A stretch of DNA of 41,003 nt, from UHGV virus genome UHGV-0224761; one strand, written 5' to 3'. A model generated the notes under the pieces. The model was not told where the DNA came from and made no database searches. It saw only the letters and a program-made list of their open reading frames with translations. This stretch comes from a virus. Position 1 is the first letter of the stretch; each line of letters starts with the position of its first letter. The position numbers and the translations under genes are program-made. Positions 556-39,778 of this stretch are shown here, one piece after another.

Positions 556-560
556 GTAAT
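556..560. repeat. Left copy of a putative 5-bp target-site duplication (GTAAT)
   Basis: Lies immediately outside the TG-initiated prophage end; matches ATAAT at 39774..39778 in 4 of 5 positions, and either copy restores the codons TAT-TAC/TAT-TGG of the interrupted gene. Confidence 0.55.
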
Positions 561-740
561 TGTAACCAGGTGAATCATTTGATACCGACAAGGGTTTTAG
601 TGAAAGGAGGTGAAATCACCTGTAAGATGCTGAAATAAAACAGGTGATGTATACTTCGGACGGAAAACTCTTTTTGATACCGACTGCTCAACAAATAGTC
701 AAAAGATCAAAAAACGGCGACACATTTGATACTGCTAATT
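561..740 (+). repeat. Left end (attL) with three putative transposase-binding repeats
   Basis: Direct copies of TTTGATACCGA at 578..588 and 673..683 and a degenerate TTTGATACTGC at 726..736; the same motif occurs inverted at the right end. Confidence 0.6.
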
Positions 741-916
741 TACCCTTAAAATCTTCTTCAAAACATCTTCAAACTGCCAAAATGCTCACATAATCGATCT
801 AACTATAATCAGTATGATAATCATCATGAATTACTATTCAATAGCGTGATTATCTTGGGATGAGTCATATGATCTCTATATGTATTTACAGCACCACCTC
901 ATGATAGCGATGGCGC

Positions 917-1528
917 TTAACCAACAACATTTTTCTTTACTGTCACTGCCCCTGATTCCTGGGTGGCGTTATTGCTCGAGTTGTACTTCTCAATAACGCG
1001 CAAAATCTCTTTGTCTGTTTCTTCACTTCCCGCCATTCCTATCTTTATTGCATTTTTTAGTACGGGACGTAATGGCAAGGCATCAATGATGCTTTCTACC
1101 GCATCCTGGCTGATTGTAGATGTATTCATTGCTGCCAGCCTGACAAGGTTGTTAGTACCTTCTCGCCTGATGAATGTAAGGATTAATTGCTTCTCTTGGG
1201 GGCTTAGAGAGCTAAGCGCCTGATCAATACCCGAACCTGAATCGCAATTTTTTCCGATTTTTCCGCATTCATCTTCGTTCTTGCCTGTGGCCAACCAGTC
1301 GAGTGAACAATTACAGGCTTTAGCTATTAAGGCCAGTTTATCCAAAGGAGGGAAGTTTTTCCCCTTCCTGTAATTTCTTACTGTGGCTTCAGATAGTCCA
1401 CAAAGGGTCGCCAGTTCGACGTTTGTCATGTTTCCCATAGCCATAGCTAAGCGTTCTGAAAATCGGTTTATTCCTTCCATATCAATAAACCGTTCCGCAC
1501 TGGATACGGTTTTTTCTGCCTTATCCAT
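917..1528 (-). CDS. c: Mu-type repressor (c-like), helix-turn-helix
   Basis: 203-aa ORF divergent from ner at the left end, as in Mu; HTH-like segment ...NVELATLCGLSEATVRNYRKG.... Confidence 0.6.
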   Translation of the reverse strand: MDKAEKTVSSAERFIDMEGINRFSERLAMAMGNMTNVELATLCGLSEATVRNYRKGKNFPPLDKLALIAKACNCSLDWLATGKNEDECGKIGKNCDSGSGIDQALSSLSPQEKQLILTFIRREGTNNLVRLAAMNTSTISQDAVESIIDALPLRPVLKNAIKIGMAGSEETDKEILRVIEKYNSSNNATQESGAVTVKKNVVG

Positions 1529-1684
1529 ATAACCCCCTATAAAACAAAGAAATTATCGACATCGCATTTAATTTCGATATGCTCGCAAAAAACCGTTGAT
1601 ATCGAATTATTTTGCGATTATGATTTACCTAAATCGATAACCGGTTTTGATTATCGGTTCAGGTAAACATGAGAGGATCACACA
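1529..1684. promoter_or_regulatory. Divergent c/ner operator-promoter region with repeated TCGATA/TATCGA motifs
   Basis: 156-bp AT-rich intergenic region between divergent c and ner, with at least five copies of ATCGA(T/A)A-like half-sites (ttatcgacatcg, ttcgatatg, gatatcgaa, aatcgataac, gattatcgg). Confidence 0.5.
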
Positions 1685-1951
1685 ATGAGGGTATCCAGAC
1701 AAGCATCGAATAATTTGTTTGTTCGAGAGGGGTGTGACTGGTCTGCTAAAGCGGTATATGCAGCCCTTGAAAACAAAGGCACAGACCTCCCTGAACTGGA
1801 AAGGGAGTTAGGATTAAAAAGCGGATCAATGCGCAATGTGTTTTACCGCCAGTGCCGTAAATACGAAGCCGCCATCGCCGAAAAAATAGGGGTTGAACCT
1901 GCTGTAATCTGGCCCAGCAGATACCAGGTGGACGCCAGAGAAGTGGCTTGA
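1685..1951 (+). CDS. ner: Ner-like DNA-binding regulator
   Basis: C-terminal ...PAVIWPSRYQ... matches the conserved Ner/Nlp signature; sits between the repressor and the transposase; RBS agagga upstream. Confidence 0.85.
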   Translation: MRVSRQASNNLFVREGCDWSAKAVYAALENKGTDLPELERELGLKSGSMRNVFYRQCRKYEAAIAEKIGVEPAVIWPSRYQVDAREVA

Positions 1952-1961
1952 TGGGGGATGT

Positions 1962-4052
1962 ATGTGGGTAACAGCAAAAGAATGTGTTGGTCTTCCTGAT
2001 TTACCAATGATGGAACATAACATTCGCCATCGACTCACAAAAGCAGCTGCGGGAAATGCAGCCATGTTACGCAAACGTAAGGGGACAAAAGCAATCGAAT
2101 TTAATATCGATTGTTTGCCTTCTGGCGCGCAACAAGTATTGCGTGAACGTTATGCCCTTCAACTGATGACGCAAAAAGCTGATGAATCACCGGCTCCGGT
2201 GGTGACAAAGGCCAGACGCTCATCTGCCGTGGTTGATGCGGTGGAGGCATATCGCGGATCACCACAACTGATGCTCGAACGCCTCAATGCCCTGACTGAA
2301 AACCAGCGCCAGGTGGCTGATGCACGAATCGCGATCGTCAGCGAAGTTCTGAAAGTCGCGCAACAACCTGGTTTCAGCTGTGCGAAGGCTATCCGGTTTA
2401 TCGTTGACAACCTGGCACGTTCGCAACTGGACGAGCGCATTGTGGCAATGGTTGAGACGGCGAACGCCAAAAAGGGAAACAGCCGTGCGTTGAGTGAAAT
2501 CACGCTGAAACGCTGGATTGCGGCCTTTAACAAGGCACAGAACGCCGCTGAACGCCTGCTTTTACTGGCACCGGGTAAACGCCAGGAAATAAAAGCCGAA
2601 GATATTAACTGGCTGCCCGAATTTCTGGCGCAGTATCGCCAGTCAAACGGCCGACCAATGACCGAGGCTTACGAGGATTTTGTTGCTGAATGGCAGCACC
2701 GGCACGCTGATGAGCCTTATATGCTCGATATCATGCCCTCTTATGACACCATTCGCCGCGCAATGAAGAAACTGCCGGAAGTGGTGAAACAAAAAGGCCG
2801 GGTAACTGGCAGTGAATACCGTCAGCTTGAGGGATTCACGCGCCGCGACTGGTCCAGAATGCCGGTGAATTATGTCTGGATTGGTGACGGTCACGGCATG
2901 AAGCTGAAATGCGCGCACCCGGTTCACGGGCGGCCATTCGCACCGGAAGTGACCTTTGTTATCGACGGTGGCACGCGCTTTGTGGTGGGCTGGAGCCTTG
3001 ACCTGGCTGAAAATGTTTTCGCCGTAGCCGGTGCCATACAGCACGGTATTCGCCATCATGGCAAACCGTTTCTGTATTACTCGGATAATGGCTCCGGGGA
3101 AACCGCCGACGTCCTGGATAAGGAGATTGTGGGGATACTGCCACGACTGGGGATTAATCACCCGACAGGGATTGCCGGTAATCCGCAGGGACGGGGCATT
3201 ATCGAACGGCTTAACCGCACATTACCGATGCGCATAGCCCGTAAATACCGCACCTATTTCGGGAAAGGAGCAGATCGCGAGACGTTACGTAAAACCAACC
3301 GCGATTTACGCTCGGCATTCAGTGCCCTGCAACAGGGCAAACGGCTGAACGCCCGGCAGCAGTCAGCGATGCGTGATTTACCGTCCTGGTCTGAACTGAT
3401 TGATGCCATTCGTGACGGTGTTGAGTGGTACAACAACCGGCCGCACGATGAATTACCCATGAAGCCGAACGGTAAACATTACAGCCCGGCGGAGTTCAGA
3501 AAAAAACGCCTGGCGGAAGAGGACACGGAAATTGAATGGCTGTCCGATGTTGAACTGCGGGATATGTTCCGGCCGATGGTGGAGCGCCCTGTAAGACGCT
3601 GTGAAATACGCTGGCTGAATAATATTTACTACGCGCCCGAGCTGCGTGACGAGCATGGCCGTAAGGTACTTATCAGCTATGACATTCATGATGCCGAACG
3701 AATTACCGTGCGCCGCCCGGATGGCAGCGTGATTTGCGAGGCGGTATGGGACGGCAATAAACGCGAAGCCTTCCCTGTCAGCGCGGAATACTACAAACAG
3801 CAGCAGCGCCTTAAAGGCATGCGTAAACGCGCAGAGGAAAAAATCCGTGATGCCGAGGATGAGGTTGTCAACGTGCTGGAGCACAAGCCGCAGGAGCCCT
3901 GGCTGGAAAACATATACCGCCCTGTGGGTAATACGGTGACCGTTCAGCAACCGGTCGCTGACGATGAACCTGATGAAGAATACGAGCGTAATTTCCAGCG
4001 GGGATTGCAACTGCTCGAAGCGAAATTAAAAGAAAGTGATCCGCTGGCCTGA
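1962..4052 (+). CDS. A: MuA-type DDE transposase
   Basis: 696 aa; N-terminus MWVTAKECVGLPDLP resembles the MuA N-terminus; central ...WIGDGHGMKL... DDE-core-like region; Mu position. Confidence 0.9.
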   Translation: MWVTAKECVGLPDLPMMEHNIRHRLTKAAAGNAAMLRKRKGTKAIEFNIDCLPSGAQQVLRERYALQLMTQKADESPAPVVTKARRSSAVVDAVEAYRGSPQLMLERLNALTENQRQVADARIAIVSEVLKVAQQPGFSCAKAIRFIVDNLARSQLDERIVAMVETANAKKGNSRALSEITLKRWIAAFNKAQNAAERLLLLAPGKRQEIKAEDINWLPEFLAQYRQSNGRPMTEAYEDFVAEWQHRHADEPYMLDIMPSYDTIRRAMKKLPEVVKQKGRVTGSEYRQLEGFTRRDWSRMPVNYVWIGDGHGMKLKCAHPVHGRPFAPEVTFVIDGGTRFVVGWSLDLAENVFAVAGAIQHGIRHHGKPFLYYSDNGSGETADVLDKEIVGILPRLGINHPTGIAGNPQGRGIIERLNRTLPMRIARKYRTYFGKGADRETLRKTNRDLRSAFSALQQGKRLNARQQSAMRDLPSWSELIDAIRDGVEWYNNRPHDELPMKPNGKHYSPAEFRKKRLAEEDTEIEWLSDVELRDMFRPMVERPVRRCEIRWLNNIYYAPELRDEHGRKVLISYDIHDAERITVRRPDGSVICEAVWDGNKREAFPVSAEYYKQQQRLKGMRKRAEEKIRDAEDEVVNVLEHKPQEPWLENIYRPVGNTVTVQQPVADDEPDEEYERNFQRGLQLLEAKLKESDPLA

Positions 4053-4125
4053 AATAAAAAAATAACCCGAGGGGTGACTCAGGTTATTTGAGGTTTCAGT
4101 CTCGGAGAATGCTGTCTCAAGCGAG

Positions 4126-5067
4126 GTGAATAATATGACCGATATTAACGATGTAATCAAGACCATTGATGAACTTATTGATGGCGGCGTACTGACGCAG
4201 TATGCCATCGCCAGAGAGGCGGGAATTTCCGACGGCACATTATCGGCTTTCCGTAAGGGAAAATATAAAGGCGATAACGCTGCTGTGGCTGCTTCCCTGC
4301 GCTCCTGGTATGAGAACTGGAATAAACAAAGCGCACTGCCGGAACCGCCGCAGTTTGTGGAAACTCAGACAGTCCAGGAGCTGCGCGCACTGTTTCAGGC
4401 GGTTCGCCTGATGGGCTGTATTAACGTTATTGTGGGCGTACCGGGTGTGGGTAAAACGGCCACTGCCCGTAATTACTGCCAGGAGCAACCAAACACCTGG
4501 ATGATCACCCTGTCACCCGCGCACTCCAGCGTCACGGAGTGTCTGCTGGAGCTGGCCGATGCGCTGGGGATTGATTACACCCGCGCGAACAAAGGGGCAT
4601 TATCCCGCGCCATCCGCCGTCGCCTGATGGGAACGCGTGGACTGGTGATTGTGGATGAGGCGGATCATCTTGGTATTGACGGTCTGGAGCAACTCCGGGC
4701 AATTCAGGACGCCACGGGGATCGGGATGGTGCTTATTGGTAACCCGCGCGGATTGTTTAAAGGTGGACGCCGCGCCTTTGATGATTTATCGCGCCTGTTC
4801 AGCCGTCTTGCCCGTACAAAACAACTTCGCAAGGCCAAAAAGGCGGATGTGCTGGCCATTGCCATGGCGTGGGGGATCAGTGGTGAGGCTGAGCTGGCCG
4901 TCATGCAGGCTATCGCTGAAAAGCCGGGAGCGTTACGCGTTCTGACACATACGCTTAACCAGGCGTGGCTCACCGCCAGCGGTGAAGGCGCGGCGCTGAC
5001 AGAAAAACATATTAATGCGGCCTTTAAAGAGGTTTATACCAACCCTGAATTACTCTCACAGGTGTGA
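4126..5067 (+). CDS. B: MuB-type AAA+ transposition target-DNA activator
   Basis: 313 aa; N-terminal HTH (ISDGTLSAFRKGKYKGDN), Walker A GVPGVGKT, Walker B VIVDEADHL; collinear with Mu B. Confidence 0.9.
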   Translation: MNNMTDINDVIKTIDELIDGGVLTQYAIAREAGISDGTLSAFRKGKYKGDNAAVAASLRSWYENWNKQSALPEPPQFVETQTVQELRALFQAVRLMGCINVIVGVPGVGKTATARNYCQEQPNTWMITLSPAHSSVTECLLELADALGIDYTRANKGALSRAIRRRLMGTRGLVIVDEADHLGIDGLEQLRAIQDATGIGMVLIGNPRGLFKGGRRAFDDLSRLFSRLARTKQLRKAKKADVLAIAMAWGISGEAELAVMQAIAEKPGALRVLTHTLNQAWLTASGEGAALTEKHINAAFKEVYTNPELLSQV

Positions 5068-5069
5068 TT

Positions 5070-5291
5070 ATGGCGGTATTTAATATTCCTGATATTTACG
5101 GACGCTTTTACCTGGTTAATTTCGATAACGTGAAGGTGATTTCACTGGCCGAAAATAAAGAATGTGGCGATTTACTTTTTGAATTTAATGACCGCACACG
5201 AATGGTGATATCTGCCGGACTTGATCGCGAAGGTGCGACAGAAGTTTACAGCGGAATATGCCGTTCTGTTGGTGCGAAACAAGTCAGCTAA
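5070..5291 (+). CDS. Hypothetical small early protein (kil position)
   Basis: ORF overlapping the B stop codon; assigned by position only. Confidence 0.4.
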   Translation: MAVFNIPDIYGRFYLVNFDNVKVISLAENKECGDLLFEFNDRTRMVISAGLDREGATEVYSGICRSVGAKQVS

Positions 5292-5303
5292 ATGAGGTGT
5301 TAT

Positions 5304-5558
5304 ATGAATATGCAATCCTGCGGTAACAAAATGAATTTATTCGACTCCCTGAACAGCGCGCGCCGTCTGACCGAACTTGCCGGTGCGGTACTGGAACGCA
5401 GTAAGCGCTATCCGCAACGTTTTGCACTGAAAACCACGCCGCCGGTAGGCAACGTGCAGGGAACCGGTGAAATTGAAATCACCATACAGACCAACGGCCT
5501 GCGCCGCCGTGTGAAGGCCACCCGCATCAGCGGCTGCACGGTTTACTGGGAGGTGTGA
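5304..5558 (+). CDS. Hypothetical early protein
   Basis: ORF with RBS gaggtg; compact early operon. Confidence 0.4.
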   Translation: MNMQSCGNKMNLFDSLNSARRLTELAGAVLERSKRYPQRFALKTTPPVGNVQGTGEIEITIQTNGLRRRVKATRISGCTVYWEV

Positions 5559-5559
5559 G

Positions 5560-5841
5560 GTGAAAAAAAATCTCATTGCATGGGCGTGGTCGAGTGGTCT
5601 TATTGAGTTTGGTTACGTCCTGCCGGAAGGTGCATTGCCGATAGTTGCCGGAAAGCCTGCCACGGTACGGCATGTGATTGAGGTTATGGCGCGTCATGGA
5701 CGTGATGAACAGGAGCAGTTACTGGTTCCGGGGATACCGGAAGCGGTGACGGAGGAAGAAGCCTTTAATGCCATGATTCGGTTCTGCCGTGAGGTTAGAC
5801 GCCGGGTCAGTTATCCAAACAGAACGAGGACCAGAGGATGA
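5560..5841 (+). CDS. Hypothetical early protein (GTG start)
   Basis: ORF with RBS ggaggtg; start codon overlaps the upstream stop. Confidence 0.4.
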   Translation: MKKNLIAWAWSSGLIEFGYVLPEGALPIVAGKPATVRHVIEVMARHGRDEQEQLLVPGIPEAVTEEEAFNAMIRFCREVRRRVSYPNRTRTRG

Positions 5842-6110
5842 GTAAAGTCGTACGCATTATTTTCGAATATAAGGAGCACGTTATCCATAAAAACGCTGAT
5901 GGAACAGTGCGCATGGGGGTAAGTCTGGACATACGTTCAACCGGGATAAAGCAGAAAGGTGATGGACCCGCCATGATTTTTGGGGTGGTTATGCTGGCAG
6001 AAAGCAGAAACTTCGCAGAGTTTGTGGCAATGAAAGCCAGTGCATTCATGAAAGACAGAGGCATGACTTCCGGGGTTATTAACGGTAATGAATTTAATCA
6101 ACAGGGGTAA
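5838..6110 (+). CDS. Hypothetical early protein, paralogue 1 (MSKVVRIIFEY...)
   Basis: ORF with RBS agagg; N-terminus similar to the next gene. Confidence 0.45.
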   Translation: MSKVVRIIFEYKEHVIHKNADGTVRMGVSLDIRSTGIKQKGDGPAMIFGVVMLAESRNFAEFVAMKASAFMKDRGMTSGVINGNEFNQQG

Positions 6111-6114
6111 TTCC

Positions 6115-6408
6115 ATGAGCAAAGTACGCGTTATTTTTGAATTTAATCATGTTTCGCATGACGAAAAGTTGGCAGGCAATGACTGTGTTGAAGTGCATGA
6201 AAAGATTGGAGTGGATGTGAAAACAGAACGTGATACGGATAACAGGCCGACGTCACTCTGTGACGTTTATGCAAGTATTCTCCAGTATCACAGTCCTGCA
6301 ATTATTCAGTTTCTCTCAGCGGAATTTCAGGCATCTGCACAGTCTTTTGGAGCGGATGCCATCATTAAACGCCACCGCGTGCATAAAGCATCAGGCACAC
6401 TGCAATAA
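6115..6408 (+). CDS. Hypothetical early protein, paralogue 2 (MSKVRVIFEF...)
   Basis: Internal ATG of the 6088 ORF gives an N-terminus paralogous to the preceding gene. Confidence 0.45.
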   Translation: MSKVRVIFEFNHVSHDEKLAGNDCVEVHEKIGVDVKTERDTDNRPTSLCDVYASILQYHSPAIIQFLSAEFQASAQSFGADAIIKRHRVHKASGTLQ

Positions 6409-6419
6409 GGAAAAACAAA

Positions 6420-6950
6420 ATGGCTAAACGCGTTACAAAATTAAAGGCCGCAGCCGAGGCGGCACCGCAGACCCGGGAAGAAGTCAGCCGTGATATCCGC
6501 ACCCTGGGAGATATTCAGCGAGAGGCGCTGCGCCTGGAAACGGCGATGAATGACGAAGTGGCAGAAATCACCGCCCGTTATACGCCGCAGATTGAAAATC
6601 TTAAAAAGCAAATCAAAGTGCTTTTTAAAGGGATTCAGGACTGGTGCAAAACCAACCGTGATGAGCTGACGAACGGCGGCAAAACCAAAACAGCCAATCT
6701 GACCACCGGAACGGTGTCATGGCGGCTGGGAACGCCATCATGCAGCGTCAGCCGTGATGTGGAAGGTGTGATTGAAATGCTGCGCCGTATGGGGCTTGAG
6801 CGTTTCATCCGCACGAAAGAGGAAGTGAACAAGGAAGCCGTCCTGGCGGAGCCGGATGCTGTGAAAGGCATTGCCGGTATCAAGGTGAATAAAGGCGCTG
6901 AAAGTTTTTATGTCGAGCCTTTTGAACAGGACGCCGGACTGAATAAATAA
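6420..6950 (+). CDS. gam: Gam host-nuclease inhibitor (Ku-like DNA-end-binding)
   Basis: 176 aa; ...GDIQREALRLETAMNDEVAEIT... and ...NRDELTNGGKTKTANLTTGTVSWR...RFIRTKEEVNKEA... closely parallel Mu Gam. Confidence 0.9.
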   Translation: MAKRVTKLKAAAEAAPQTREEVSRDIRTLGDIQREALRLETAMNDEVAEITARYTPQIENLKKQIKVLFKGIQDWCKTNRDELTNGGKTKTANLTTGTVSWRLGTPSCSVSRDVEGVIEMLRRMGLERFIRTKEEVNKEAVLAEPDAVKGIAGIKVNKGAESFYVEPFEQDAGLNK

Positions 6951-7095
6951 CACCGCATTAATCAATTAAATATCACTTCATTTTAATTATGGCGCTCGCG
7001 TCAGGGGACTGCTTGCGCCTGAAAACAGAAAATAAGGGTTAAGAAATATGAAATACGTTTATATCGTCATTAATAATGTGGTGGGGAAATAAATC

Positions 7096-7629
7096 ATGAT
7101 TGATGCAAAAGTGCTTGAAGGGGTTAAAAACTGGCTGCGTATTTATGGCCGCCTGACCTGCGGTGTACTGGCTGAAAAAATGAATATGCCGCCATCCTCC
7201 ATGGTTTATTTTCTGCGTGATGCGGTTGATGCAGGCGTGCTGACGGAATGTAACGGTTTTTATGATATTCCGCGCCCCCGCCCGGTGCAGCCGGTTCGTC
7301 GCAAATGCAGCCAGGAATCTGCGGCTGATGATGTTCAGTGGTGCAGCTTCAGAAAATCCCTGCCATGGATTGAGGGGCATGATATTCCGTCGATGGCGTG
7401 GGAATTTGCTCAGGGCGTTCTGACCTGTGAAACCGTTTATGTGGTGGCTGAAGTTGATGAGCAGGCCATGAAAGAAGGCGTGCCCCAGTTTGTGATGGCG
7501 TATATCGACATACGCCTGGGCGTCATTATCTGCGGTTTAAGCGGCTGGAATATCACTGAACATGTTCTGCGCTACCTGATTGTTGACCGGACAGCAGCGC
7601 CTGCCGGGATATCTGCGGAGGTGGCGTAA
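7096..7629 (+). CDS. Hypothetical early protein
   Basis: 177-aa ORF with RBS. Confidence 0.4.
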   Translation: MIDAKVLEGVKNWLRIYGRLTCGVLAEKMNMPPSSMVYFLRDAVDAGVLTECNGFYDIPRPRPVQPVRRKCSQESAADDVQWCSFRKSLPWIEGHDIPSMAWEFAQGVLTCETVYVVAEVDEQAMKEGVPQFVMAYIDIRLGVIICGLSGWNITEHVLRYLIVDRTAAPAGISAEVA

Positions 7630-8144: not shown

Positions 8145-8147
8145 TGT

Positions 8148-8699: not shown

Positions 8700-9025
8700 T
8701 AACGACCTTATTTGTTGAATCAGATGAACCTCTTGTGTGTGCCGCCGGAATGCCGCTCTGTGGCGGAACGCTGACCGGTGTTTATTTCGGGGATTTACGC
8801 GGTTATCCCTGGCATTCACTGAATGATGCTTTCCCACCTGATATGGAGGCTGTCGTGCTGATTGTTCAGTATGGTCACCGTCAGGAGCTGCGCATCGGCC
8901 ATATGGGGTATGAAGGCTTTTTTGTTGATGAAGAAACCGGAGCCTGCCTTGAAGATGAAGACGGACAGGTGACGCACTGGTGTCATATTTCGGCTTTACC
9001 GGAATTACGGGAGGTGAATGCGTGA
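8696..9025 (+). CDS. Hypothetical early protein
   Basis: 109-aa ORF, coupled start. Confidence 0.4.
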   Translation: MITTLFVESDEPLVCAAGMPLCGGTLTGVYFGDLRGYPWHSLNDAFPPDMEAVVLIVQYGHRQELRIGHMGYEGFFVDEETGACLEDEDGQVTHWCHISALPELREVNA

Positions 9026-9372: not shown

Positions 9373-9387
9373 GCAGGCTGGTGAATA

Positions 9388-10068: not shown

Positions 10069-10132
10069 ATCGATACCTTTAGTTTTATCCGGGCGGCGTT
10101 GCCATGCCGCCTGTTGTTACGGAGACACGATA

Positions 10133-10645: not shown

Positions 10646-10652
10646 CCCCAAA

Positions 10653-32232: not shown

Positions 32233-32783
32233 CCCTGACCCCGCATCAGCGCGCCCTGTTGCAGTTACTGCCTGACGGGCTGGCATGGGACAAGCGTCCG
32301 TCATCCGTACTGGCATCATTATGTCTGGGCCTCAGTCATTCGACAGCGCGTGTATCCTGGACGGGTAAACAGCTGCTTGCCGAGCGTTTCCCTGACACGT
32401 CGCGCCTGCTGCTGGAAGACTGGGAGCGTTATCTCGGGCTTCCCGAGTGTGATATGGCCGGAGCCACCCTCACGGAGCGACAGCGTTATGCCGGAAATAA
32501 ATACCGGATGAAGCCCTCGCTGAACCGTGAATTTTATATCCGGTTTGCGGCGGAGTTTGGTTATCAGATTGACATTCAGCCCTCACCGGATTCGCAGTGG
32601 GTCAGTATTGTCACGATTAACAGTGAAACCGGCTACCGGAATATGAATGTGCTGGATGATATTCTCACGCCGCTGCGTATTTATGAAGGCGGTGCGCTGG
32701 AATGTATTCTGAACCGTTATAAGCCTGCATGGCAGACGTTTATTTACGTTTATGCAAACAGCCATGAAGAGGAGACTATTTAA
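32223..32783 (+). CDS. R: Mu R/gp48-like tail protein
   Basis: 186 aa; position immediately before the tail fibre gene. Confidence 0.55.
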
Positions 32784-33673
32784 TGTTTCATGTTGATAAT
32801 AATTCCGGCGTGGCGAATATGCCTGCGCTGGCACCGGCGCAGAGTAATACCACCACCTGGTTTACCGAAGGTGACGGACAAAAAGGTATCAGCTGGATTG
32901 GTCAGGACTGGCTGAATATTCTCCAGGCCGAACTGCTGAATATTCTGGCTGAAGCCAGTATTCAGCCGGATAAGGCGCAGTTAAACCAGCTTACGCTGTC
33001 CATTAAAGCCATTATCGCTGCGAATGCCTTTTCCCGGAAAAATAACCTGAAAGAAATTGCTGATGCCGGTGCGGAGGCCCAGCGTCTGGCCCGTGGTTAT
33101 CTTGGTCTGGGGACGCTTGCCACAAAAAACAGTCTTGGTCCCGCTGACGTTAATGCCCTGGCGAAGGATCAGAATCTCGCCGACCTGGAGAATAAGGGAA
33201 CCGCCCGTAATAATCTGGATGTTTACAGCAAAAGCGAAGGTGATAACCGTTACCTGCGCAGGGAGCAGAACGGCGCAGACATTCCGGATAAAGGGGCTTT
33301 TATCGATAACGTCGGTTTACGGGAAACGGTAAACAGGGCGGCGAATGCTCTGCCATCGGACGGCACCGCCGTTGCCGCGAATAGACTCGCCACCCCAAGA
33401 AATATTAATGGGGTTCCCTTTGACGGGACGCAGGACATAAACATCACTTCTGGTATAACACAGCAGGATGCGGATTCCCGATATATCCAGGATATCAGGC
33501 TGGGAGCAGAGAACAGGCAGGTAATGTACGGTGGGGCATATTACTCTGCGTACGGTAATGTTATGGCAGGCCTGCAGATTGACAGTAAAGTTGATGCTTC
33601 AAACGATTTTATAGCATTCAGACCCCTGCAAAAATTAGTCGGAGGTACATGGATTACGGTATCTCAGTTATAA
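32783..33673 (+). CDS. S: Tail fibre protein S: constant part fused to the variable part Sv in the present orientation
   Basis: 296 aa; the gix crossover site lies at about codon 177; the C-terminus ...[18 protein letters not shown] is paralogous to the alternative Sv' tip. Confidence 0.7.
33300..33325. promoter_or_regulatory. gix-like recombination site, left (TTATCGATAACG-TC-GGTTTACGGGAA)
   Basis: 26-bp site with dyad symmetry matching the Gin/Hin crossover-site pattern; an inverted copy lies at 34617..34642. Confidence 0.7.
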
Positions 33674-33724
33674 ATAGTCAGTAAATAATATATTTTAAAA
33701 CAGATTTATTTCCAGGAGGATTTT

Positions 33725-34246
33725 ATGGAACTAAAAAATATAACCCGTTATTATCCTGAAAATATGCCATATGGTAATAATGTTCAGTATTTCCAGAGTG
33801 AAGATGGTAAGGATTTCTACGAATCCCTGCCATTATTCACCAAAAAATATAAACTTTGCATAACACCTGACAGCGGCGTTATCTGCTCAATATCACAGGA
33901 CGCCTCGGCGCTGTATCCTGCGGGGTTTTCTGTGGTTGAGGTCGATGAACTCCCTGAAGGCACGGATATTTCAGGAAACTGGAAGTTTGATAATGGCATA
34001 ATCTCCCGTATTCCGGTTAACTACGCAAGAAAACTGGAAGCAATGCGCCAGTCATATCTTAATCAGGCATATGAAAAAATTAATGACTGGAGAACGGAGC
34101 TACAACTGGGCACCATCAGCGATGAAGACAGAGCAGCACTTACCCAATGGATGGCATACATCAGTCAGGTGAAGAAAATGGAACTACCCGCCATTAAAAC
34201 AGAAGCTGAATTTAACGCCATTAAATGGCCTGAGCAGCCACAGTAA
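33725..34246 (+). CDS. U: Tail fibre assembly protein (U-like)
   Basis: 173-aa ORF immediately after S with RBS aggagg. Confidence 0.6.
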   Translation: MELKNITRYYPENMPYGNNVQYFQSEDGKDFYESLPLFTKKYKLCITPDSGVICSISQDASALYPAGFSVVEVDELPEGTDISGNWKFDNGIISRIPVNYARKLEAMRQSYLNQAYEKINDWRTELQLGTISDEDRAALTQWMAYISQVKKMELPAIKTEAEFNAIKWPEQPQ

Positions 34247-34250
34247 TAAA

Positions 34251-34268
34251 GAAGGCCGGAAGGCCTTC
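34251..34268. terminator. Hairpin between convergent U and Sv'
   Basis: gaaggcc-ggaa-ggccttc, a 7-bp perfect stem, flanked by A/T-rich sequence. Confidence 0.5.
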
Positions 34269-34277
34269 TGAATATCA

Positions 34278-34628
34278 TTATATACTTGCAGCCGTCACCC
34301 ATGCTCCATTTAACAGATACTGCAACGGCCGGTAATACACGCCGCCGACGTTATCTGCCGTATTCTTACCGACATCCTGTACTTTAATTCCGGTAAGAAC
34401 ATTGCCGCCCCCCAGATTCAGATCCCAGCTTTCCCATGTTCCGGGCATATGTGCGGTCACCGACCCCAGTCTTATGGCGGTTACTGTTCCTGATGAGATA
34501 GTGATATCCTGCGTCCCGTCAAAGGGAACACCATTAATTGTGTGGGCATTTGCCAGCCTGTTCGCGGCAACGGCGGTGCCGTCCGATGGCAGGGCATTCG
34601 CCGCCCTGTTTACCGTTTCCCGTAAACC
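34278..34628 (-). CDS. Alternative tail fibre variable part Sv' (no own start; expressed after inversion as an Sc-Sv' fusion)
   Basis: Minus-strand frame open from the gix site to the stop at 34278, reading ...[41 protein letters not shown]...YYRPLQYLLNGAWVTAASI, collinear with Sv. Confidence 0.6.
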   Translation of the reverse strand, partial: GLRETVNRAANALPSDGTAVAANRLANAHTINGVPFDGTQDITISSGTVTAIRLGSVTAHMPGTWESWDLNLGGGNVLTGIKVQDVGKNTADNVGGVYYRPLQYLLNGAWVTAASI

Positions 34629-34642
34629 GAGGTTTTCAGGAA
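34617..34642. promoter_or_regulatory. gix-like recombination site, right (TTCCCGTAAACC-GA-GGTTTTCAGGAA)
   Basis: Close match to the Gin crossover-site pattern; inverted relative to 33300..33325. Confidence 0.7.
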
Positions 34643-34707
34643 AGCCAGGATTAACTCTGTTTTATTCCTCATGCGACAATTCCGGCTTTTTATAATAAGG
34701 AAATCGT

Positions 34708-35280
34708 ATGCTGATTGGGTATATCAGGGTGTCAACAAATGACCAGAATACGGCGCTACAAAGAAATGCGCTGGAATGTGCAGGATGTGAGCTGTTTTTC
34801 GAAGACAGAATAAGCGGTAAGACAAGGGAGCGTCCCGGACTTAAACGCGCATTAAAGCGACTCCGGCCAGGGGATACCCTGCTGGTCTGGAAACTGGATC
34901 GCCTTGGACGCAGTATGCAGCACCTTGTCCTTTTAACAGAAGAACTCCGGCAACGCGGCGTTAACTTCCGCAGCATTACGGACAATATTGATACATCCAC
35001 TCCCATGGGACGTTTCTTTTTCCATATAATGGGCGCGCTGGCGGAAATGGAGCGGGAACTCATTATTGAACGTACACGCGCGGGTCTTGCTGCTGCCCGT
35101 GCTCAGGGGCGTCATGGCGGCAGACCTCAGAAACTGACAGAGAAAGAGCGGGAGCAAATCGCCCGTTTGCTGGCTAATGGCGAGTCCCGTAAACAAATCG
35201 CACTGATATTTGATATTGGCCTTTCCACCCTTTATCGTTATTTTCCTGCCTCACCAGCTCCGTCACCAAAAGTACCGTGA
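34708..35280 (+). CDS. gin: Gin/Hin-family serine DNA invertase
   Basis: 190 aa; MLIGYIRVSTNDQ... with the catalytic serine in the RVST motif and a C-terminal HTH (...GESRKQIALIFDIGLSTLYRY...). Confidence 0.95.
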   Translation: MLIGYIRVSTNDQNTALQRNALECAGCELFFEDRISGKTRERPGLKRALKRLRPGDTLLVWKLDRLGRSMQHLVLLTEELRQRGVNFRSITDNIDTSTPMGRFFFHIMGALAEMERELIIERTRAGLAAARAQGRHGGRPQKLTEKEREQIARLLANGESRKQIALIFDIGLSTLYRYFPASPAPSPKVP

Positions 35281-35365
35281 CACTTTTTTGAATTTCCGCA
35301 AAACACATATTTTTCAGCGGTCGCTATTCTGACTCTGTTTAATTCAGAAACAGGCAGAAAAGACG

Positions 35366-37420
35366 ATGTCAGACTCCAAGTGGAAAATGCTCTCCGCCAT
35401 GCCCGGAGAGTTTTCAGTCAAGGTTGCCGGTGGCACGGTGGCATTTATTGAAAGCCCTTTCCGCCCTTCGGGTAATAAAGGGGGGATCACCTTCGCAGAC
35501 TGCGTGATCCGCTTCAGCACGAAAGAGCCATTATGGGTAATGCCGGTATCCGGTAATCCCAGTGCAGAAATCACCAGTTCAGGCGTGACTGGCATCATTC
35601 CAATCACATCTGACGTGGCCGGAACGCTCACGCCCTCCGACTGGAATGCACCGGATAACGCCGGGCCTTCCGGTAGCACGAATGGCAGCAGTTCAGAGCC
35701 GGAATATTACTTTGTTGTCATTCTCGCGGGTCAGTCAAATGGCATGGCCTACGGCGAGGGGCTGCCGTTACCGGATTCGTTTGACCGCCCGGACCCACGC
35801 ATTAAGCAACTGGCACGCCGCAGTACGGTAACGCCCAACGGTACGTCGTGTACATACAACGACATCATTCCGGCAGACCACTGCCTGCATGATGTTCAGG
35901 ATATGAGCGGGATAAACCACCCGAAAGCTGATCTGGCAAAAGGCCAGTACGGGACTGTCGGTCAGGGGTTGCATATTGCCAAAAAACTGCTTCCCTATAT
36001 CCCACAGAATGCCGGGATACTTCTGGTGCCCTGTTGTCGTGGCGGGTCAGCATTCACCACTGGAGCCGACGGCTCATTCAGTGAGGCCAGCGGTGCTTCC
36101 GCTGATTCTTCACGCTGGGGGGCCGGTAAACCTCTGTATCAGGACCTGGTAAGCCGCACCAAAGTCGCGCTGGCGAAAAACCCGAAAAACAAACTTCTGG
36201 CTGTGGTCTGGATGCAGGGAGAGGCAGACCTTGCCTCAGGAAGCCAGCAGCATAATAGTTTATTCACGGCCATGGTTCAGCAGTTCAGAACTGACCTGGC
36301 TCCGCTTGCTGCGCAGTGCGTGAGTGGAAATGCCACCACGGTGCCGTGGATTTGCGGTGATACCACGTATTACTGGAAAAACGCTGGCACCGATAAATAT
36401 GAGGCAGTATACGGTGGCTACAAAGGCAAGGAAGCACAGAAAATTTTCTTTGTACCGTTCCTGACGGATGAGAATGGACAGAGCACGCCAACGAATGCTC
36501 CGGCGGAAGACCCGGATATTGTGGCTGTCGGGTATTACGGTGCAGCATCCCGAACCCAGGGCAGTTTTGTTTCGACACAGCGTGACAGCCATTTCAGCTC
36601 ATGGGCACGCAGGGGCGTCATTTCAGACCGTCTGGCCTCAGCTATTATGCTCCATGCAGGGCGCACGGCTGAACTGATGCGCGGGCAGACCGTGACACCA
36701 CCGGATGAGAAGCCGTCACCTGATACACCATCAAAACCGTCCACGCCACCCGCAGACACCACGACGATGAGTACGCTATTTGCTTACCGGGCATCTGAGT
36801 CTGAAGGACGGTTGACACCACAGGGTTGGGCTGCCGGAGGTGGCAAGGCTCAAATCGTGGATGATGCCGGAGCCAGCGGGGGTAAGGCAATGAAACTGAC
36901 CAAGGAAACAGGAAGAGCCCCCTGGTACCTTGAGCATGATGCTGGTAATGGTGCGGACCTGCTGGGTAAAGGTGGTCTTGTCAGTTGTCGTTTTAAACTC
37001 GATGGCGCGCTTACGGCTAATCAGTACGCACTGGCGCTGTACTGGCCGGTTTCTGCCCTGCCGCAAGGGGTTACTCTGGAAGGAAATGCCGGTCATAACC
37101 TGCTGGCATCGTTCTACGTACAGAGCGATGCCACAGACCTTAACGTGATGTATCACAAAGGAAACACGGCGCAGAACACGAAGCTGGGGTCATTCGGCGC
37201 ATTTAATAACGAATGGCATACGCTGGGCTTCCGTTTTGCCGGTAACAACAGTATTGAGGTGACGCCGGTCATTGATGGTAAGGACGGGACACCATTCATG
37301 CTGTCGCAGTCTCCGGTCGGCACGTTTACGGCAGACAAGTTGCGCGTGACCGATATCACTAAAAATGCGACTTACCCGGTACTGATTGACAGTATCGTGG
37401 TGGAAGTGAATAACGCGTAA
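35366..37420 (+). CDS. SGNH-hydrolase / sialate-O-acetylesterase-like protein (NanS-p-like) with a long C-terminal domain; prophage cargo
   Basis: 684 aa; SGNH block I ...VVILAGQSNGMAYGEG...; paralogous to the host gene fragments at both prophage junctions. Confidence 0.7.
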   Translation: MSDSKWKMLSAMPGEFSVKVAGGTVAFIESPFRPSGNKGGITFADCVIRFSTKEPLWVMPVSGNPSAEITSSGVTGIIPITSDVAGTLTPSDWNAPDNAGPSGSTNGSSSEPEYYFVVILAGQSNGMAYGEGLPLPDSFDRPDPRIKQLARRSTVTPNGTSCTYNDIIPADHCLHDVQDMSGINHPKADLAKGQYGTVGQGLHIAKKLLPYIPQNAGILLVPCCRGGSAFTTGADGSFSEASGASADSSRWGAGKPLYQDLVSRTKVALAKNPKNKLLAVVWMQGEADLASGSQQHNSLFTAMVQQFRTDLAPLAAQCVSGNATTVPWICGDTTYYWKNAGTDKYEAVYGGYKGKEAQKIFFVPFLTDENGQSTPTNAPAEDPDIVAVGYYGAASRTQGSFVSTQRDSHFSSWARRGVISDRLASAIMLHAGRTAELMRGQTVTPPDEKPSPDTPSKPSTPPADTTTMSTLFAYRASESEGRLTPQGWAAGGGKAQIVDDAGASGGKAMKLTKETGRAPWYLEHDAGNGADLLGKGGLVSCRFKLDGALTANQYALALYWPVSALPQGVTLEGNAGHNLLASFYVQSDATDLNVMYHKGNTAQNTKLGSFGAFNNEWHTLGFRFAGNNSIEVTPVIDGKDGTPFMLSQSPVGTFTADKLRVTDITKNATYPVLIDSIVVEVNNA

Positions 37421-37428
37421 GCAGGATA

Positions 37429-37467
37429 AAAAAATGCCGCCGGTAAGGGAAAACAAGAAACCGGCGG
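37429..37467. terminator. Hairpin after the esterase gene (T-run on the minus strand)
   Basis: 9-bp stem gccgccggt...accggcggc preceded by an A7 run on the plus strand, which is a T-run on the minus strand. Confidence 0.45.
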
Positions 37468-37552
37468 CAAAAAGATCGTTATATCCAAAGCAAAAAATGC
37501 AGTGCACCTTTTTACCTAACAGATATTACCGGTGTCAACACCATGTCAATAA

Positions 37553-37747
37553 TTGGGAGGGATAATGACATTTTTACAGCTTATTTTATTGTATTTCTGC
37601 ACGGCAGTATGTGCGTTATATCTGGTGAGTGGTGGTTATAAGGCCATCAGAAATTATGTTCGCCGCAAAATTGAGGACGCAGCAGCTGAAAAACTCAGTA
37701 AAACAGCGCAGGTAACTCCGCTCCCAAAAGACCCGACCCAGCCCTGA
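37553..37747 (+). CDS. Small single-pass membrane protein (cargo)
   Basis: 64 aa; N-terminal hydrophobic helix FLQLILLYFCTAVCALYLV; strong RBS gggaggg. Confidence 0.5.
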   Translation: MGGIMTFLQLILLYFCTAVCALYLVSGGYKAIRNYVRRKIEDAAAEKLSKTAQVTPLPKDPTQP

Positions 37748-37782
37748 TTGCAGGGCTTTATTCCCGCATAAGGAGGATATAC

Positions 37783-38037
37783 ATGCCAGAAATTAAAGGC
37801 ACCGTCACTGAAGACCTGGTAAAACAGGCACTGTATTCCGGTGAAGTAAATAAGTTGCTGAAAGCGCAGGTCCGCAAGGATTTTGAGGCACAAATCGACA
37901 CTTACGTTGATGAAGTGCTGGCAAAACTTATTGGGCCAGCAGTTGCGGCCAGTGATGCTGATAATGAGCCGAAAACCGACGCGCAGCCAGAGCAACCAGA
38001 CCCGGCTCAGCCCGGAACTGACAGTACCATGATGTAA
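37783..38037 (+). CDS. Small acidic protein with a disordered Pro/Asp/Glu-rich tail (cargo)
   Basis: 84 aa; strong RBS aggagg. Confidence 0.5.
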   Translation: MPEIKGTVTEDLVKQALYSGEVNKLLKAQVRKDFEAQIDTYVDEVLAKLIGPAVAASDADNEPKTDAQPEQPDPAQPGTDSTMM

Positions 38038-38204
38038 CAATACAAACCGGTGGTGTCCTCTGCCGGTTTGACACTAATGAAAACATCTTTGCCGCTATCC
38101 AGCCATATGTAATCGCTGGATAGTATTTCGTATTCAGAAATATAGCTGCTTATGGAGCAGTCAATCCTGCTTCCCCATCCGGGCAGGCAAATGAACCGGT
38201 ATCA

Positions 38205-38498
38205 TTAGTCCGATTCACGCTTTTGTAGAATCGTTCCCAGAATGCTATACAGCTCATTAGCCTGTTGCTCCATCATTGAGACGGAGGCTATACGGTGCAA
38301 AGTGATTTCAGGAGGTGGCACACCTCCATCTTCTTGCTGTGGAGGAAAAACATAAGATTTAATAAAAAAGTTGAAGCATATGAACTCTCCCGCACTCGAA
38401 CTGTATTTGCAGGCATCTGAATAATCGGAAAAATAATCATTATAGATTTCCGCATTTTCAATCATTTTTCGATTTCTCGTCGTTACATGATTGTCCAT
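38205..38498 (-). CDS. Hypothetical protein in an AT-rich island (cargo, reverse orientation)
   Basis: 97-aa ORF on the minus strand; the surrounding 38040..38710 region is AT-rich compared with the rest of the prophage. Confidence 0.45.
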   Translation of the reverse strand: MDNHVTTRNRKMIENAEIYNDYFSDYSDACKYSSSAGEFICFNFFIKSYVFPPQQEDGGVPPPEITLHRIASVSMMEQQANELYSILGTILQKRESD

Positions 38499-38686
38499 AG
38501 CAGCCTCTTACGCTGGCAATTAACCAATTGACTTCTATAAATTAGTTGATTTGTTTGCTTTGCGGTATTCAAATGTACAATCATTCAGCACTTATGCGTT
38601 ACAGCACCGTTTAAAATTAGTGATCAAACTCATAAATTTTCGCTAATGACATTTCGTGTTATTTGTTGTATCAATTAAATAAATCA

Positions 38687-38711
38687 AATCGATCGTTTTT
38701 GTCGATCGATT
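38687..38711. promoter_or_regulatory. Perfect palindrome AATCGATCG-N7-CGATCGATT with two GATC sites upstream of com
   Basis: 9-bp inverted repeat with GATC at 38691..38694 and 38705..38708. Confidence 0.5.
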
Positions 38712-38754
38712 GAGTGATAAAGATATCAACAACAAAGCAGGAGGTTATGCGGCC

Positions 38755-38955
38755 ATGTATCGAAACATACGGTGCCGACATTGTAACAAGCTACTGGCAC
38801 GAGCCAGCTTCAGTTATCTGGAAGTTAAATGTCCGCGCTGTAAAACCCTCAATCAAATCACATCTCAGAGCGCCACAGAGCACCCCACATACACAAGGAA
38901 ATCCTGTCGTGGGGAACAGAAAGCAAGTTACATCCCGTATCATCAGCACGCCTGA
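38755..38955 (+). CDS. com: Com zinc-finger translational activator of mom
   Basis: ...[30 protein letters not shown]...EHPT parallels the Mu Com Cys4 zinc finger; the track ORF begins upstream at 38710 with a non-ATG start. Confidence 0.8.
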
Positions 38956-39646
38956 ACTTATTCACTATAACGACAATATCGTCGGTTATGGCTCCCGTGA
39001 GTTACGGGTTGAGACAATAAGTTGCTGGCTGGCCCGGCTGGTCGTCGTCAATAAACATTACAGCCATCGTTTCGTAAATAATTCCTACCTTCATCTGGGC
39101 ATATTTTCAGAACGGGAGCTGGTTGGCGTAATGCAATGGGGTTATGCCCTTAATCCAAACAATGGTGCACGCGTCGTAACTGGCACGCAGAACCGCGAAT
39201 ATATGGAGCTTAACCGGTTATGGCTGCATGACTGTATGCCGAGAAACTCCGAATCAAGGGCAATCAGTTACGCGCTCAAACTAATCAGACAACTTTATCC
39301 GCAGGTGCAGTGGGTTCAGTCGTTTGCAGATGAGCGTTGTGGCTGTCTTGGTGTCGTGTACCAGGCAAGCAATTTTGATTATGTAGGCAGTCATGAAACA
39401 ACATTCTATGAACTTGATGGCGAGTGGTATCACGAGATTTGCAAGAATGCAATCAAACGAGGAGGACAGCGAGGTGAACATCTGCGGGCTAATATCGACA
39501 GAGCCAGTGTTCATAAATTCCGTCAGTTTCGTTACATCCGGTTTCTGGACAAGAGAGCCAGAAAACGCCTTAACACAAAGCTATTCAAAGTCCAGCCTTA
39601 CCCAAAACCACAAACAGTTAAAACTGGTTTGAAAGAGAGTGAATGA
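38909..39646 (+). CDS. mom: Mom-like DNA modification protein
   Basis: Start overlaps the 3' end of com and it is the last gene before the right end, as in Mu; GTG start after RBS aagga lying inside a palindrome aggaaatcct. Start is approximate (the track ORF extends upstream to 38714). Confidence 0.55.
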
Positions 39647-39689
39647 ACGCTTAAAAACTCATTCTAAAACTCAAAAGAAAAGCGCCGAT

Positions 39690-39773
39690 TTAGTATCAAA
39701 TAAGTTGCGTATCGGCGTTTTTCAGCGGTATCAAATGAAATGCAAATCGGTATCAAAAAAATCGCCGCGCTAT
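39690..39773 (+). repeat. Right end (attR) with three inverted transposase-binding repeats
   Basis: Reverse complements of TTTGATACCGA at 39748..39758, TTTGATACCGC at 39725..39735 and TTTGATACT at 39692..39700; the terminus ...CGCCGCGCTAT resembles the Mu right end. Confidence 0.6.
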
Positions 39774-39778
39774 ATAAT
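39774..39778. repeat. Right copy of the putative 5-bp target-site duplication (ATAAT)
   Basis: Pairs with GTAAT at 556..560. Confidence 0.55.

What the first reader, a model, noticed from the sequence alone, without database searches (positions are those of the whole stretch)
556..39778. Mu-like prophage inserted in frame inside an SGNH-esterase gene, with a near-perfect 5-bp target duplication
The minus-strand gene fragments at 39779..40631 (5' part, ending ...GDTTYY) and 1..555 (3' part, beginning WKNTYATQYD...) are collinear with adjacent parts of the intact paralogue at 35366..37420. Deleting 561..39773 plus one copy of the flanking pentamer (GTAAT / ATAAT) rejoins them as ...ACG ACG TAT TA(C/T) TGG AAA..., i.e. 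GDTTYYWKN. This fixes both prophage ends to the base, shows a Mu-type 5-bp duplication with one mismatch, and shows the insertion is a relatively recent disruptive event.
Basis: seen in the sequence. Interest (0 to 1): 0.6.

Follow-up and report, generated by a model that had tools for sequence, protein, structure and literature searches.

The report
Mu-like prophage splitting a prophage esterase gene

Summary
The core observation holds. The minus-strand pieces 39779..40631 and 1..560 are two halves of one NanS-p-type esterase gene (DUF1737 + SASA domains). Joining them in silico gives a sequence found uninterrupted in 1,344 complete E. coli genomes, best match 99.1% in a single piece. There it lies in the late region of a lambdoid prophage.

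The insert is an apparently intact Sp18-like transposable prophage. It has a MuA-like transposase, MuB, Gam, Mor, a Gin invertible segment, Com/Mom and Mu-type arrays of end-binding sites.

Two corrections:
- The right end is 39774, not 39773. Ten independent insertions of this phage family all keep the terminal ...GCGCTATA. Nine of them have an exact 4-bp duplication, here TAAT at 557-560 and 39775-39778.
- The "intact paralogue" at 35366..37420 is standard cargo of this phage family, not a host gene.

Sp18-like phages nested in other prophages, including Stx phages, are already published. The only mildly novel point is a family property: TG...TA termini and a 4-bp duplication. The papers I could search describe only 5 or 6 bp for transposable phages. 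Overall this is ordinary and already known.

The parts
1..560 (-). 3' part of the interrupted NanS-p-type esterase gene. It runs off the window start and holds the predicted catalytic His (residue 359 of the rejoined protein).
   Evidence: Translation. Alignment to NanS structure 3PT5. Bases 58..560 differ at 1 position from the intact allele in L001.
557..560 (.). Left copy of the 4-bp target-site duplication, TAAT.
   Evidence: The 4-bp rule was checked on 9 other insertions.
561..39774 (+). Sp18-like transposable (Mu-like) prophage, 39,214 bp. Termini are 5'-TGTAACC... and ...GCGCTATA-3'.
   Evidence: Independent insertions start at 561 and end at 39774. The gene order equals that of Sakai Sp18.
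578..735 (+). Left-end array of three putative transposase-binding sites (TTTGATACCGA-like) at 578-588, 673-683 and 725-735.
   Evidence: The first site begins 20 nt from the terminus, the same distance as at the right end.
917..1528 (-). Repressor (CI-type HTH).
   Evidence: Pfam Phage_CI_repr and HTH_3.
1962..4052 (+). DDE transposase, a distant MuA relative (23% identity). Inferred catalytic residues are D309, D375 and E415.
   Evidence: Pfam Mu-transpos_C and HTH_Tnp_Mu_1. PHROG 310. BLASTP against MuA.
4126..5067 (+). MuB-like AAA+ transposition ATPase.
   Evidence: Pfam Phage-MuB_C and AAA_22.
33305..34637 (.). Invertible tail-fibre segment bounded by 86-nt inverted repeats (33305-33390 / 34552-34637).
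   Evidence: The segment is found in the opposite orientation in Sakai Sp18.
34708..35280 (+). Gin-type serine DNA invertase.
   Evidence: Pfam Resolvase and HTH_7.
35366..37420 (+). Phage-borne esterase paralogue (SASA + DUF6645). Its 106-aa N-terminus is unrelated to DUF1737. It is cargo of the Mu-like phage.
   Evidence: Pfam. 63% aa identity to the interrupted gene. Present at the same position in Sp18 and five other prophages.
37553..38037 (+). DUF1378 and DUF826 small genes. They belong to PHROG phage families and lie next to the esterase in every Sp18-like prophage examined.
   Evidence: Pfam. PHROGs 494 and 311. Same position in the other Sp18-like prophages.
38710..39646 (+). com and mom (DNA modification module).
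   Evidence: Pfam Zn_ribbon_Com and Mom.
39690..39774 (-). Right-end array of three binding sites (39747-39757, 39725-39735, 39690-39700) and the terminal ...TATA.
39775..39778 (.). Right copy of the 4-bp target-site duplication, TAAT.
39779..40631 (-). 5' part of the interrupted esterase gene (DUF1737 domain plus the N-terminal part of SASA, with nucleophile Ser73). The ORF reads 7 codons into the phage end and stops at 39753.
   Evidence: 99.6% identical to the intact allele.
40854..41003 (-). STnc100 sRNA in the leader upstream of the esterase gene, cut by the window end. It fits a lambdoid late-region context.
   Evidence: Rfam RF02076, 97.5 bits. Context in L001.

Best explanation
Bases 561..39774 are an apparently intact Sp18-like transposable prophage, a distant relative of phage Mu. 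It integrated by DDE transposition into codon 286 of a 617-codon nanS-p-type 9-O-acetyl-sialate esterase gene. That gene belongs to the late region of a resident lambdoid prophage.

Inferred mechanism: the transposase binds three sites at each phage end and joins the phage 3' ends (left strand ...ACA-3', right strand ...TATA-3') to target phosphates 4 bp apart. Gap repair then produced the perfect TAAT duplication.

Inferred consequences: the insertion separates the esterase's nucleophile Ser73 (5' fragment) from His359 (3' fragment), so this esterase copy is dead. It also places 39.2 kb between the lambdoid late promoter region and that phage's lysis and morphogenesis genes. This probably makes the carrier prophage too long to package.

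The esterase paralogue inside the Mu-like phage is normal cargo of that phage family and has no demonstrated link to the choice of target.
For: - Empty site: it is present full-length in one piece in 1,344 E. coli genomes and reads CCAGTAATACGTCG.
- Location of the intact allele: it lies between the Q antiterminator/tRNA genes and the holin, lysozyme and terminase genes of a lambdoid prophage.
- Left end: it is fixed at 561 by about 25 insertions at unrelated loci.
- Right end: it is fixed at 39774.
- Duplication: exact 4-bp repeats occur in 9 of 10 independent insertions. Depositors annotated 4-bp repeats.
- Transposition machinery and Mu-like modules come from Pfam and PHROGs.
- Binding-site arrays are symmetric at both ends, each starting 20 nt from the tip.
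- The gene set and gene sizes equal those of Sakai Sp18.
- Sp18 is packaged and not circularised (PMC2669165).
- Sp18-like phages inserted in other prophages and in Stx phages are reported (PMC10132054).
- NanS homology: E = 6e-121 to 3PT5 across the break point.
Against: - One of the ten insertions (AST198, yghD) has only a 3-bp repeat, in a run of G. The stagger may therefore not be strictly 4 bp, or that assembly lost one G.
- The carrier lambdoid prophage is inferred from intact alleles elsewhere. The window holds only 0.56 kb and 1.2 kb of flank.
- Activity of the phage, loss of esterase function and loss of packaging of the carrier prophage are inferred, not shown.
Confidence: 0.93

Rival explanations
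1. One reading: the phage spans 561..39773 and made a Mu-type 5-bp duplication, GTAAT/ATAAT, one copy of which has since mutated.
For: Phage Mu itself makes 5-bp duplications (established knowledge; PMC8705779). The two pentamers differ at one base only.
Against: The A at 39774 is present at the right end of every independent insertion examined. The base before the left copy was G, G, C, T, T, T, T, G and C in the nine cases, never A. Nine independent G/C/T-to-A mutations at the same position are not credible. GenBank annotates 4 bp.
Confidence: 0.02
2. The two esterase fragments come from different paralogous copies and were brought together by recombination, inversion or misassembly. E. coli genomes hold up to 15 such genes.
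For: The copies are numerous and mosaic (median 2, maximum 15 places per genome). Ten of the 11 left-flank mismatches to L001 cluster in bases 1..57.
Against: Both flanks next to the junction match one intact allele at 99.6-99.8%. The join is collinear in one alignment piece. The junctions coincide exactly with the phage termini and carry a perfect 4-bp duplication. The same junction ORF occurs in a metagenome assembly, though whether that assembly is independent of the window's source is unknown.
Confidence: 0.02
3. The insert is composite: a Mu-like phage plus a separately acquired esterase/DUF1378/DUF826 island of host or lambdoid origin at its right side. The true phage would then end near 35300.
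For: The esterase module is about 70% identical in DNA to nanS-p genes of Stx and lambdoid phages. It lies near the right end.
Against: The module lies inside the phage, between gin and com/mom. It is present at the same place in Sp18 and in every other family member examined, at unrelated insertion sites. The right-end binding sites and terminus lie beyond it.
Confidence: 0.02

Closest known systems
Prophage Sp18 of E. coli O157:H7 Sakai and its relatives (e.g. Phi804-3 of FRIK804)
   Same: Same gene order, gene sizes and termini (TGTAACCAGG... / ...GCGCTATA). Same esterase-DUF1378-DUF826-com-mom right arm. 4-bp duplication (TAAA in sorM). Left-end DNA is 98.7% identical in O157:H7 copies and up to 99.8% in other E. 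coli.
   Different: Different insertion site. The esterase allele, the orientation of the invertible segment and a few early genes differ. This window's phage is 39,214 bp, against 38,755 bp by my reading of the Sp18 ends.
Mu-like phages inserted in Stx prophages (LC727881, LC727895; CC119 STEC, PMC10132054)
   Same: The same phage family nested inside a lambdoid prophage, with an annotated 4-bp duplication.
   Different: Other target genes. About 92% DNA identity over the left 24 kb. It is unknown whether the carrier prophage here encodes Stx.
Bacteriophage Mu (Muvirus mu)
   Same: MuA/MuB-type transposition genes, L1-L3/R1-R3-like end-site arrays, Gam, Mor, Gin-inverted tail-fibre segment, Com/Mom, and insertion at many different sites.
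   Different: The transposase is only 23% identical. The duplication is 4 bp rather than 5 bp. The right terminus is TA rather than CA. The repressor is of CI type. There is an extra esterase cargo module.
NanS-p prophage esterases (z1466 of 933W, phi24B gp84/vb_24B_21) and chromosomal NanS (PDB 3PT5)
   Same: The interrupted gene has a DUF1737 N-domain and a SASA esterase core homologous to NanS (E = 6e-121). It occupies the lambdoid late-region position.
   Different: Here the gene is split and presumably inactive. The Mu-borne paralogue lacks DUF1737 and has an uncharacterised N-terminus.
Leptospira transposable prophages with TA-TA ends (PMC8705779)
   Same: A non-canonical TA terminus in a MuA-like transposable prophage.
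   Different: Those have TA at both ends and 6-bp duplications. Here only the right end is TA and the duplication is 4 bp.

Membership tests
Mu-like transposable phages | MuA-type DDE transposase | tested here: met
   Pfam Mu-transpos_C (63 bits) and HTH_Tnp_Mu_1. PHROG 310 transposase, E = 5e-209. Collinear with MuA at 23% identity.
Mu-like transposable phages | MuB-type AAA+ target-delivery ATPase next to the transposase | tested here: met
   Pfam Phage-MuB_C (87 bits) and AAA_22 at 4126..5067.
Mu-like transposable phages | Insertion at many unrelated sites in different strains | tested here: met
   Left ends abut bglJ, yghD, cho, melA, betT, glrR, siiEA and phage portal/terminase genes, among others.
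Mu-like transposable phages | Arrays of transposase-binding repeats at both ends | tested here: met
   Three TTTGATACCGA-like sites at each end in inverted orientation, the first starting 20 nt from each tip. Binding itself was not tested.
Mu-like transposable phages | 5'-TG...CA-3' termini | tested here: not met
   The left end is TG. The right end is TA (...GCGCTATA) in all ten insertions read.
Mu-like transposable phages | 5-bp (Mu) or 6-bp (B3) target duplication | tested here: not met
   4 bp in 9 of 10 insertions and 3 bp in one.
Mu-like transposable phages | Replicative transposition, no circular excised form, headful packaging with host flanks | not testable with these tools
   Reported for Sp18: packaged, not circularised (PMC2669165). 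Not testable for this copy.
NanS-p prophage esterases (the interrupted gene) | SASA/SGNH esterase core homologous to NanS | tested here: met
   Pfam SASA. 3PT5 match E = 6e-121 over residues 60-379 of the rejoined protein.
NanS-p prophage esterases (the interrupted gene) | N-terminal DUF1737 domain | tested here: met
   Pfam DUF1737, 58 bits, residues 3-49.
NanS-p prophage esterases (the interrupted gene) | Location in the late region of a lambdoid prophage | tested here: inconclusive
   True for the 99.1%-identical intact allele in L001. The window's own flanks are too short, although they include the upstream STnc100 leader.
NanS-p prophage esterases (the interrupted gene) | 9-O-acetyl sialate esterase activity | not testable with these tools
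   Activity is shown for homologues in the literature (PMC8065619). It is expected to be lost here because Ser73 and His359 are on separate fragments (inference).

The most novel reading that the evidence does not exclude
Sp18-like phages are a separate lineage of transposable phages. Their transposase (23% identical to MuA) works on asymmetric TG...TA termini and attacks the target with a 4-bp stagger rather than the 5 bp (Mu) or 6 bp (B3, Leptospira) described so far. That would give a natural variant for studying how the Mu-type transposase complex on the phage ends sets its target spacing. This is a property of the whole phage family, visible in this window. It is implicit in two GenBank annotations but was not discussed in any paper I could search.
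Probability: 0.8. Interest if true: 0.35.

Novelty: already known. Interest (0 to 1): 0.15.

Why it matters
Little is new for biology at large. Sp18-like Mu-like prophages are common in E. coli and are known to land inside other prophages, including Stx phages.

This case is a clean worked example. A transposable phage knocks out one copy of a multi-copy sialic-acid esterase gene. It probably also immobilises the lambdoid prophage that carries the gene, by adding 39 kb between the late promoter and the lysis and head genes.

The practical lesson concerns annotation. The ends of this phage family should be set with a 4-bp duplication and a ...TATA right terminus, not by analogy with Mu. The Sakai reference annotation of Sp18 is itself a few bases off at both ends. 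The 4-bp stagger and the TA terminus may interest people who study Mu-type transposition.

Tried and rejected
- I searched 5,426 complete E. coli genomes for this exact insertion across both junctions and found none. An exact-protein look-up of the junction ORF found one 6.3-kb metagenome contig.
- I tested alternative end assignments: phage start at 562, phage end at 39772 or 39773, and a 5-bp repeat shifted by one base. None gives direct repeats across the ten insertions.
- The AST198 (yghD) insertion did not fit the 4-bp rule. I recovered its empty site, CTGGCGGGGCG. The repeat there is CGG. Either one G was lost from a G-run or the stagger was 3 bp. This remains unresolved.
- Literature searches for a 4-bp duplication in Mu-like phages returned nothing relevant. 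PMC10132054 does not mention duplications in its text.
- I considered that the phage targets its own esterase paralogue. None of the other 25 listed left-end junctions lies in a SASA gene, so this is best treated as coincidence.
- Five of those 25 junctions lie in prophage genes. That is roughly the prophage share of STEC genomes, so the table gives no clear evidence of a bias towards prophages.
- ARAGORN found no tRNA in the window.
- Several fetched loci did not appear in the Python sandbox, so I read their ends with get_sequence instead.
Full report
**The observation.** On the minus strand, 39753..40631 translates to a 292-aa product. It starts MAFKHYDVV... and ends ...VPWICGDTTYY, followed by seven codons and a stop read from the insert (IARRFF*). 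Bases 1..558 translate without a stop as YWKNTYATQYDTVYGGYK... and run off the window. The 684-aa ORF at 35366..37420 contains ...VPWICGDTTYYWKNAGTDKYEAVYGGYK.... BLASTP of the rejoined fragments against it gives 63% identity over 434 residues, with no gap at the junction.

**The empty site.** I joined 1..560 to 39779..41003 and searched 5,426 complete E. coli genomes.
- 1,344 genomes hold a place covering at least 80% of the 1,785-bp join.
- The best hits are single-piece, full-length alignments at 99.0-99.1% identity, annotated 'SASA family carbohydrate esterase'.
- In the best hit (L001) the site reads ...TTTTTCCAGTAATACGTCGTGTC....
- Against that allele, bases 58..560 differ at 1 position and 39779..41003 at 5. 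Ten further mismatches cluster in bases 1..57, a mosaic boundary far from the junction.

The two fragments therefore belong to one gene.

**The interrupted gene.**
- Pfam finds DUF1737 (residues 3-49) and SASA.
- The rejoined protein matches the solved structure of E. coli NanS, a 9-O-acetyl-N-acetylneuraminate esterase (3PT5), with E = 6e-121 over residues 60-379.
- In L001 the intact 617-codon gene lies in a lambdoid prophage. The Q antiterminator and tRNA genes are on one side; the holin, lysozyme and terminase genes are on the other.
- This is the position and architecture of the NanS-p esterases of Stx and other lambdoid phages (PMC8065619). In phi24B the DUF1737 domain was recently reported to dock the protein on the capsid (bioRxiv 10.64898/2026.04.10.717836).
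- An STnc100 sRNA match at 40854..41003 fits the same late-region leader.

The 'host' gene is thus itself prophage DNA, which makes this a phage within a phage. The window's flanks (0.56 and 1.2 kb) are too short to show this directly.

**The insert.**
- Pfam and PHROGs identify a CI-type repressor (917..1528, minus strand), a MuA-like transposase (1962..4052), a MuB-like ATPase (4126..5067), a Gin-type invertase (34708..35280), Com and Mom.
- 86-nt inverted repeats at 33305-33390 and 34552-34637 bound an invertible tail-fibre segment.
- The order and sizes of the ORFs equal those annotated for prophage Sp18 of O157:H7 Sakai. I saw no truncated genes.
- The left 1.9 kb is 98.7-99.8% identical, and the right 2.3 kb up to 100% identical, to prophages scattered through E. 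coli genomes.
- Sp18 is described as an apparently intact, efficiently packaged, non-circularising Mu-like phage (PMC2669165).
- Sp18-like phages sit at variable loci. In one STEC lineage 6 of 10 were inside other mobile elements, including Stx phages (PMC10132054).
- The transposase is only 23% identical to MuA but collinear with it. By motif, the DDE residues are D309, D375 and E415 (inference).

**The ends.**
- About 25 insertions at unrelated loci (bglJ, yghD, cho, melA, betT, glrR, siiEA, phage genes) all begin their match at base 561.
- At the right end, independent insertions match through 39774. A few extend one to three bases further by chance. Matches to the intact esterase gene start at 39775.
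- TTTGATACCGA-like sites occur three times at each end, in inverted orientation: 578, 673 and 725 on the left; 39757, 39735 and 39700 on the right. The first GATACCG core begins exactly 20 nt from 561 and 20 nt from 39774.
- The phage is therefore 561..39774, with termini TGTAACC... and ...GCGCTATA.

**The duplication.** With these ends, the window carries a perfect 4-bp repeat, TAAT, at 557-560 and 39775-39778. I read both junctions of nine other independent insertions:

| Insertion site | Repeat |
|---|---|
| cho | AGAG |
| bglJ | GTAC |
| a Stx2c phage | CATC |
| a Stx1a phage | AGAG |
| Sakai Sp18 in sorM | TAAA |
| melA | CGTT |
| betT | CAAC |
| glrR | CGTA |
| yghD (AST198) | CGG only |

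- In every case the phage ends ...CTATA.
- The depositors of LC727881 and LC727895 annotated 4-bp 'duplication due to insertion of Mu'.
- For the yghD exception, the empty site is CTGGCGGGGCG. Either one G of a G-run was lost or the stagger there was 3 bp. I could not decide between these.

**The paralogue.** The esterase at 35366..37420, followed by DUF1378 and DUF826 genes, lies between gin and com/mom in Sp18 and in every family member I looked at, at unrelated insertion sites. It is phage cargo.
- It has the SASA core and a DUF6645 C-terminal domain. In place of DUF1737 it has a 106-residue N-terminus with no Pfam or PHROG match.
- Its DNA is about 70% identical to nanS-p genes of Stx and lambdoid phages. 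It is also only 70.6% identical to the allele in the LC727881 Mu-like phage, so the module is polymorphic within the family.
- None of the other listed insertions is in a SASA gene. The phage landing in a relative of its own cargo gene is best read as coincidence.

**Consequences (inferred).**
- The break falls in codon 286. Aligned to NanS, the nucleophile serine of GQSN (Ser73) stays on the 5' fragment. The histidine aligned with chain residue 312 of 3PT5 (His359 here) is on the 3' fragment. That NanS uses a Ser-His dyad is from my memory of the NanS structure paper. This esterase copy should be inactive.
- The 39.2 kb of Mu-like DNA now lies between the late-promoter side of the carrier prophage and its lysis and morphogenesis genes (context). 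This probably makes the carrier too long to package. The deposited 93-kb 'Stx phage' records with the same kind of insert illustrate the size problem.
- The event looks recent. The repeat is perfect, the 471 rejoined codons hold no stop, and the phage ORFs are intact. No complete E. coli genome in the collection has this insertion. The exact 292-aa junction ORF occurs in one metagenome contig.

**Comparison and novelty.** The element is a member of the known Sp18-like group, and insertion into another prophage is a published pattern. It works like Mu, but it fails two textbook Mu features that I tested: the CA right terminus and the 5-bp duplication. The papers I could search describe 5 bp for Mu, 6 bp for B3 and Leptospira prophages, and TA-TA ends only in Leptospira (PMC8705779). 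Searches for a 4-bp duplication in Mu-like phages found nothing. This family-level detail is the only mildly new point, and it is already implicit in GenBank annotation.

**Verdict.** The finding is real and largely correct, and it is ordinary. The right boundary and the nature of the duplication need correcting.

Noticed in passing
window 18602..18681 (-): A tRNA-like element lies between the head-morphogenesis and gpG-like genes. It scores 31 bits on Rfam tRNA (gathering score 29) in a small-region scan. ARAGORN does not call it. NCBI's PGAP annotation pipeline marks 'tRNA-OTHER' at the same place in other Sp18-like prophages. Its function is unknown.
   Followed up: partly
window 40854..41003 (-): STnc100 sRNA (RF02076, 97.5 bits), cut by the window end, upstream of the interrupted esterase gene. 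It lies in the leader region of the carrier lambdoid prophage.
   Followed up: no
window 35366..35683 (+), residues 1-106 of the phage-borne esterase: The Mu-borne NanS-p paralogue replaces the DUF1737 domain (reported as capsid-binding in phi24B) with an N-terminus that has no Pfam or PHROG match. It might anchor the esterase to the Mu-like virion. The allele is only 70.6% identical in DNA to that of another Sp18-like phage.
   Followed up: partly
L002 (E. coli AST198, NZ_AP043606.1) 567-570 and 37627-37630: This Sp18-like insertion in yghD has only a 3-bp repeat (CGG) at an empty site CTGGCGGGGCG, unlike the 4 bp seen in nine other insertions. It could be a homopolymer error, a 1-nt loss or a variable stagger. 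The same prophage also has a deletion in its head protease region.
   Followed up: partly
L007 (Sakai NC_002695.2) 471..39225: The reference annotation of Sp18 (locus 472..39230) is off by one base at the left and five at the right, compared with the termini and 4-bp TAAA repeat read here.
   Followed up: yes
L003 (E. coli HCP4S3_I4, NZ_CM149872.1) 1076..11087: A 10-kb deletion derivative of the same phage sits in cho. It retains both ends, the transposition genes, an IS1 and the esterase-com-mom arm, and still has the 4-bp repeat.
   Followed up: no
window 33305..34637: The Gin-type invertible tail-fibre segment is in the opposite orientation to that in Sakai Sp18. The tail-fibre assembly gene is on + here and on - there.
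   Followed up: no
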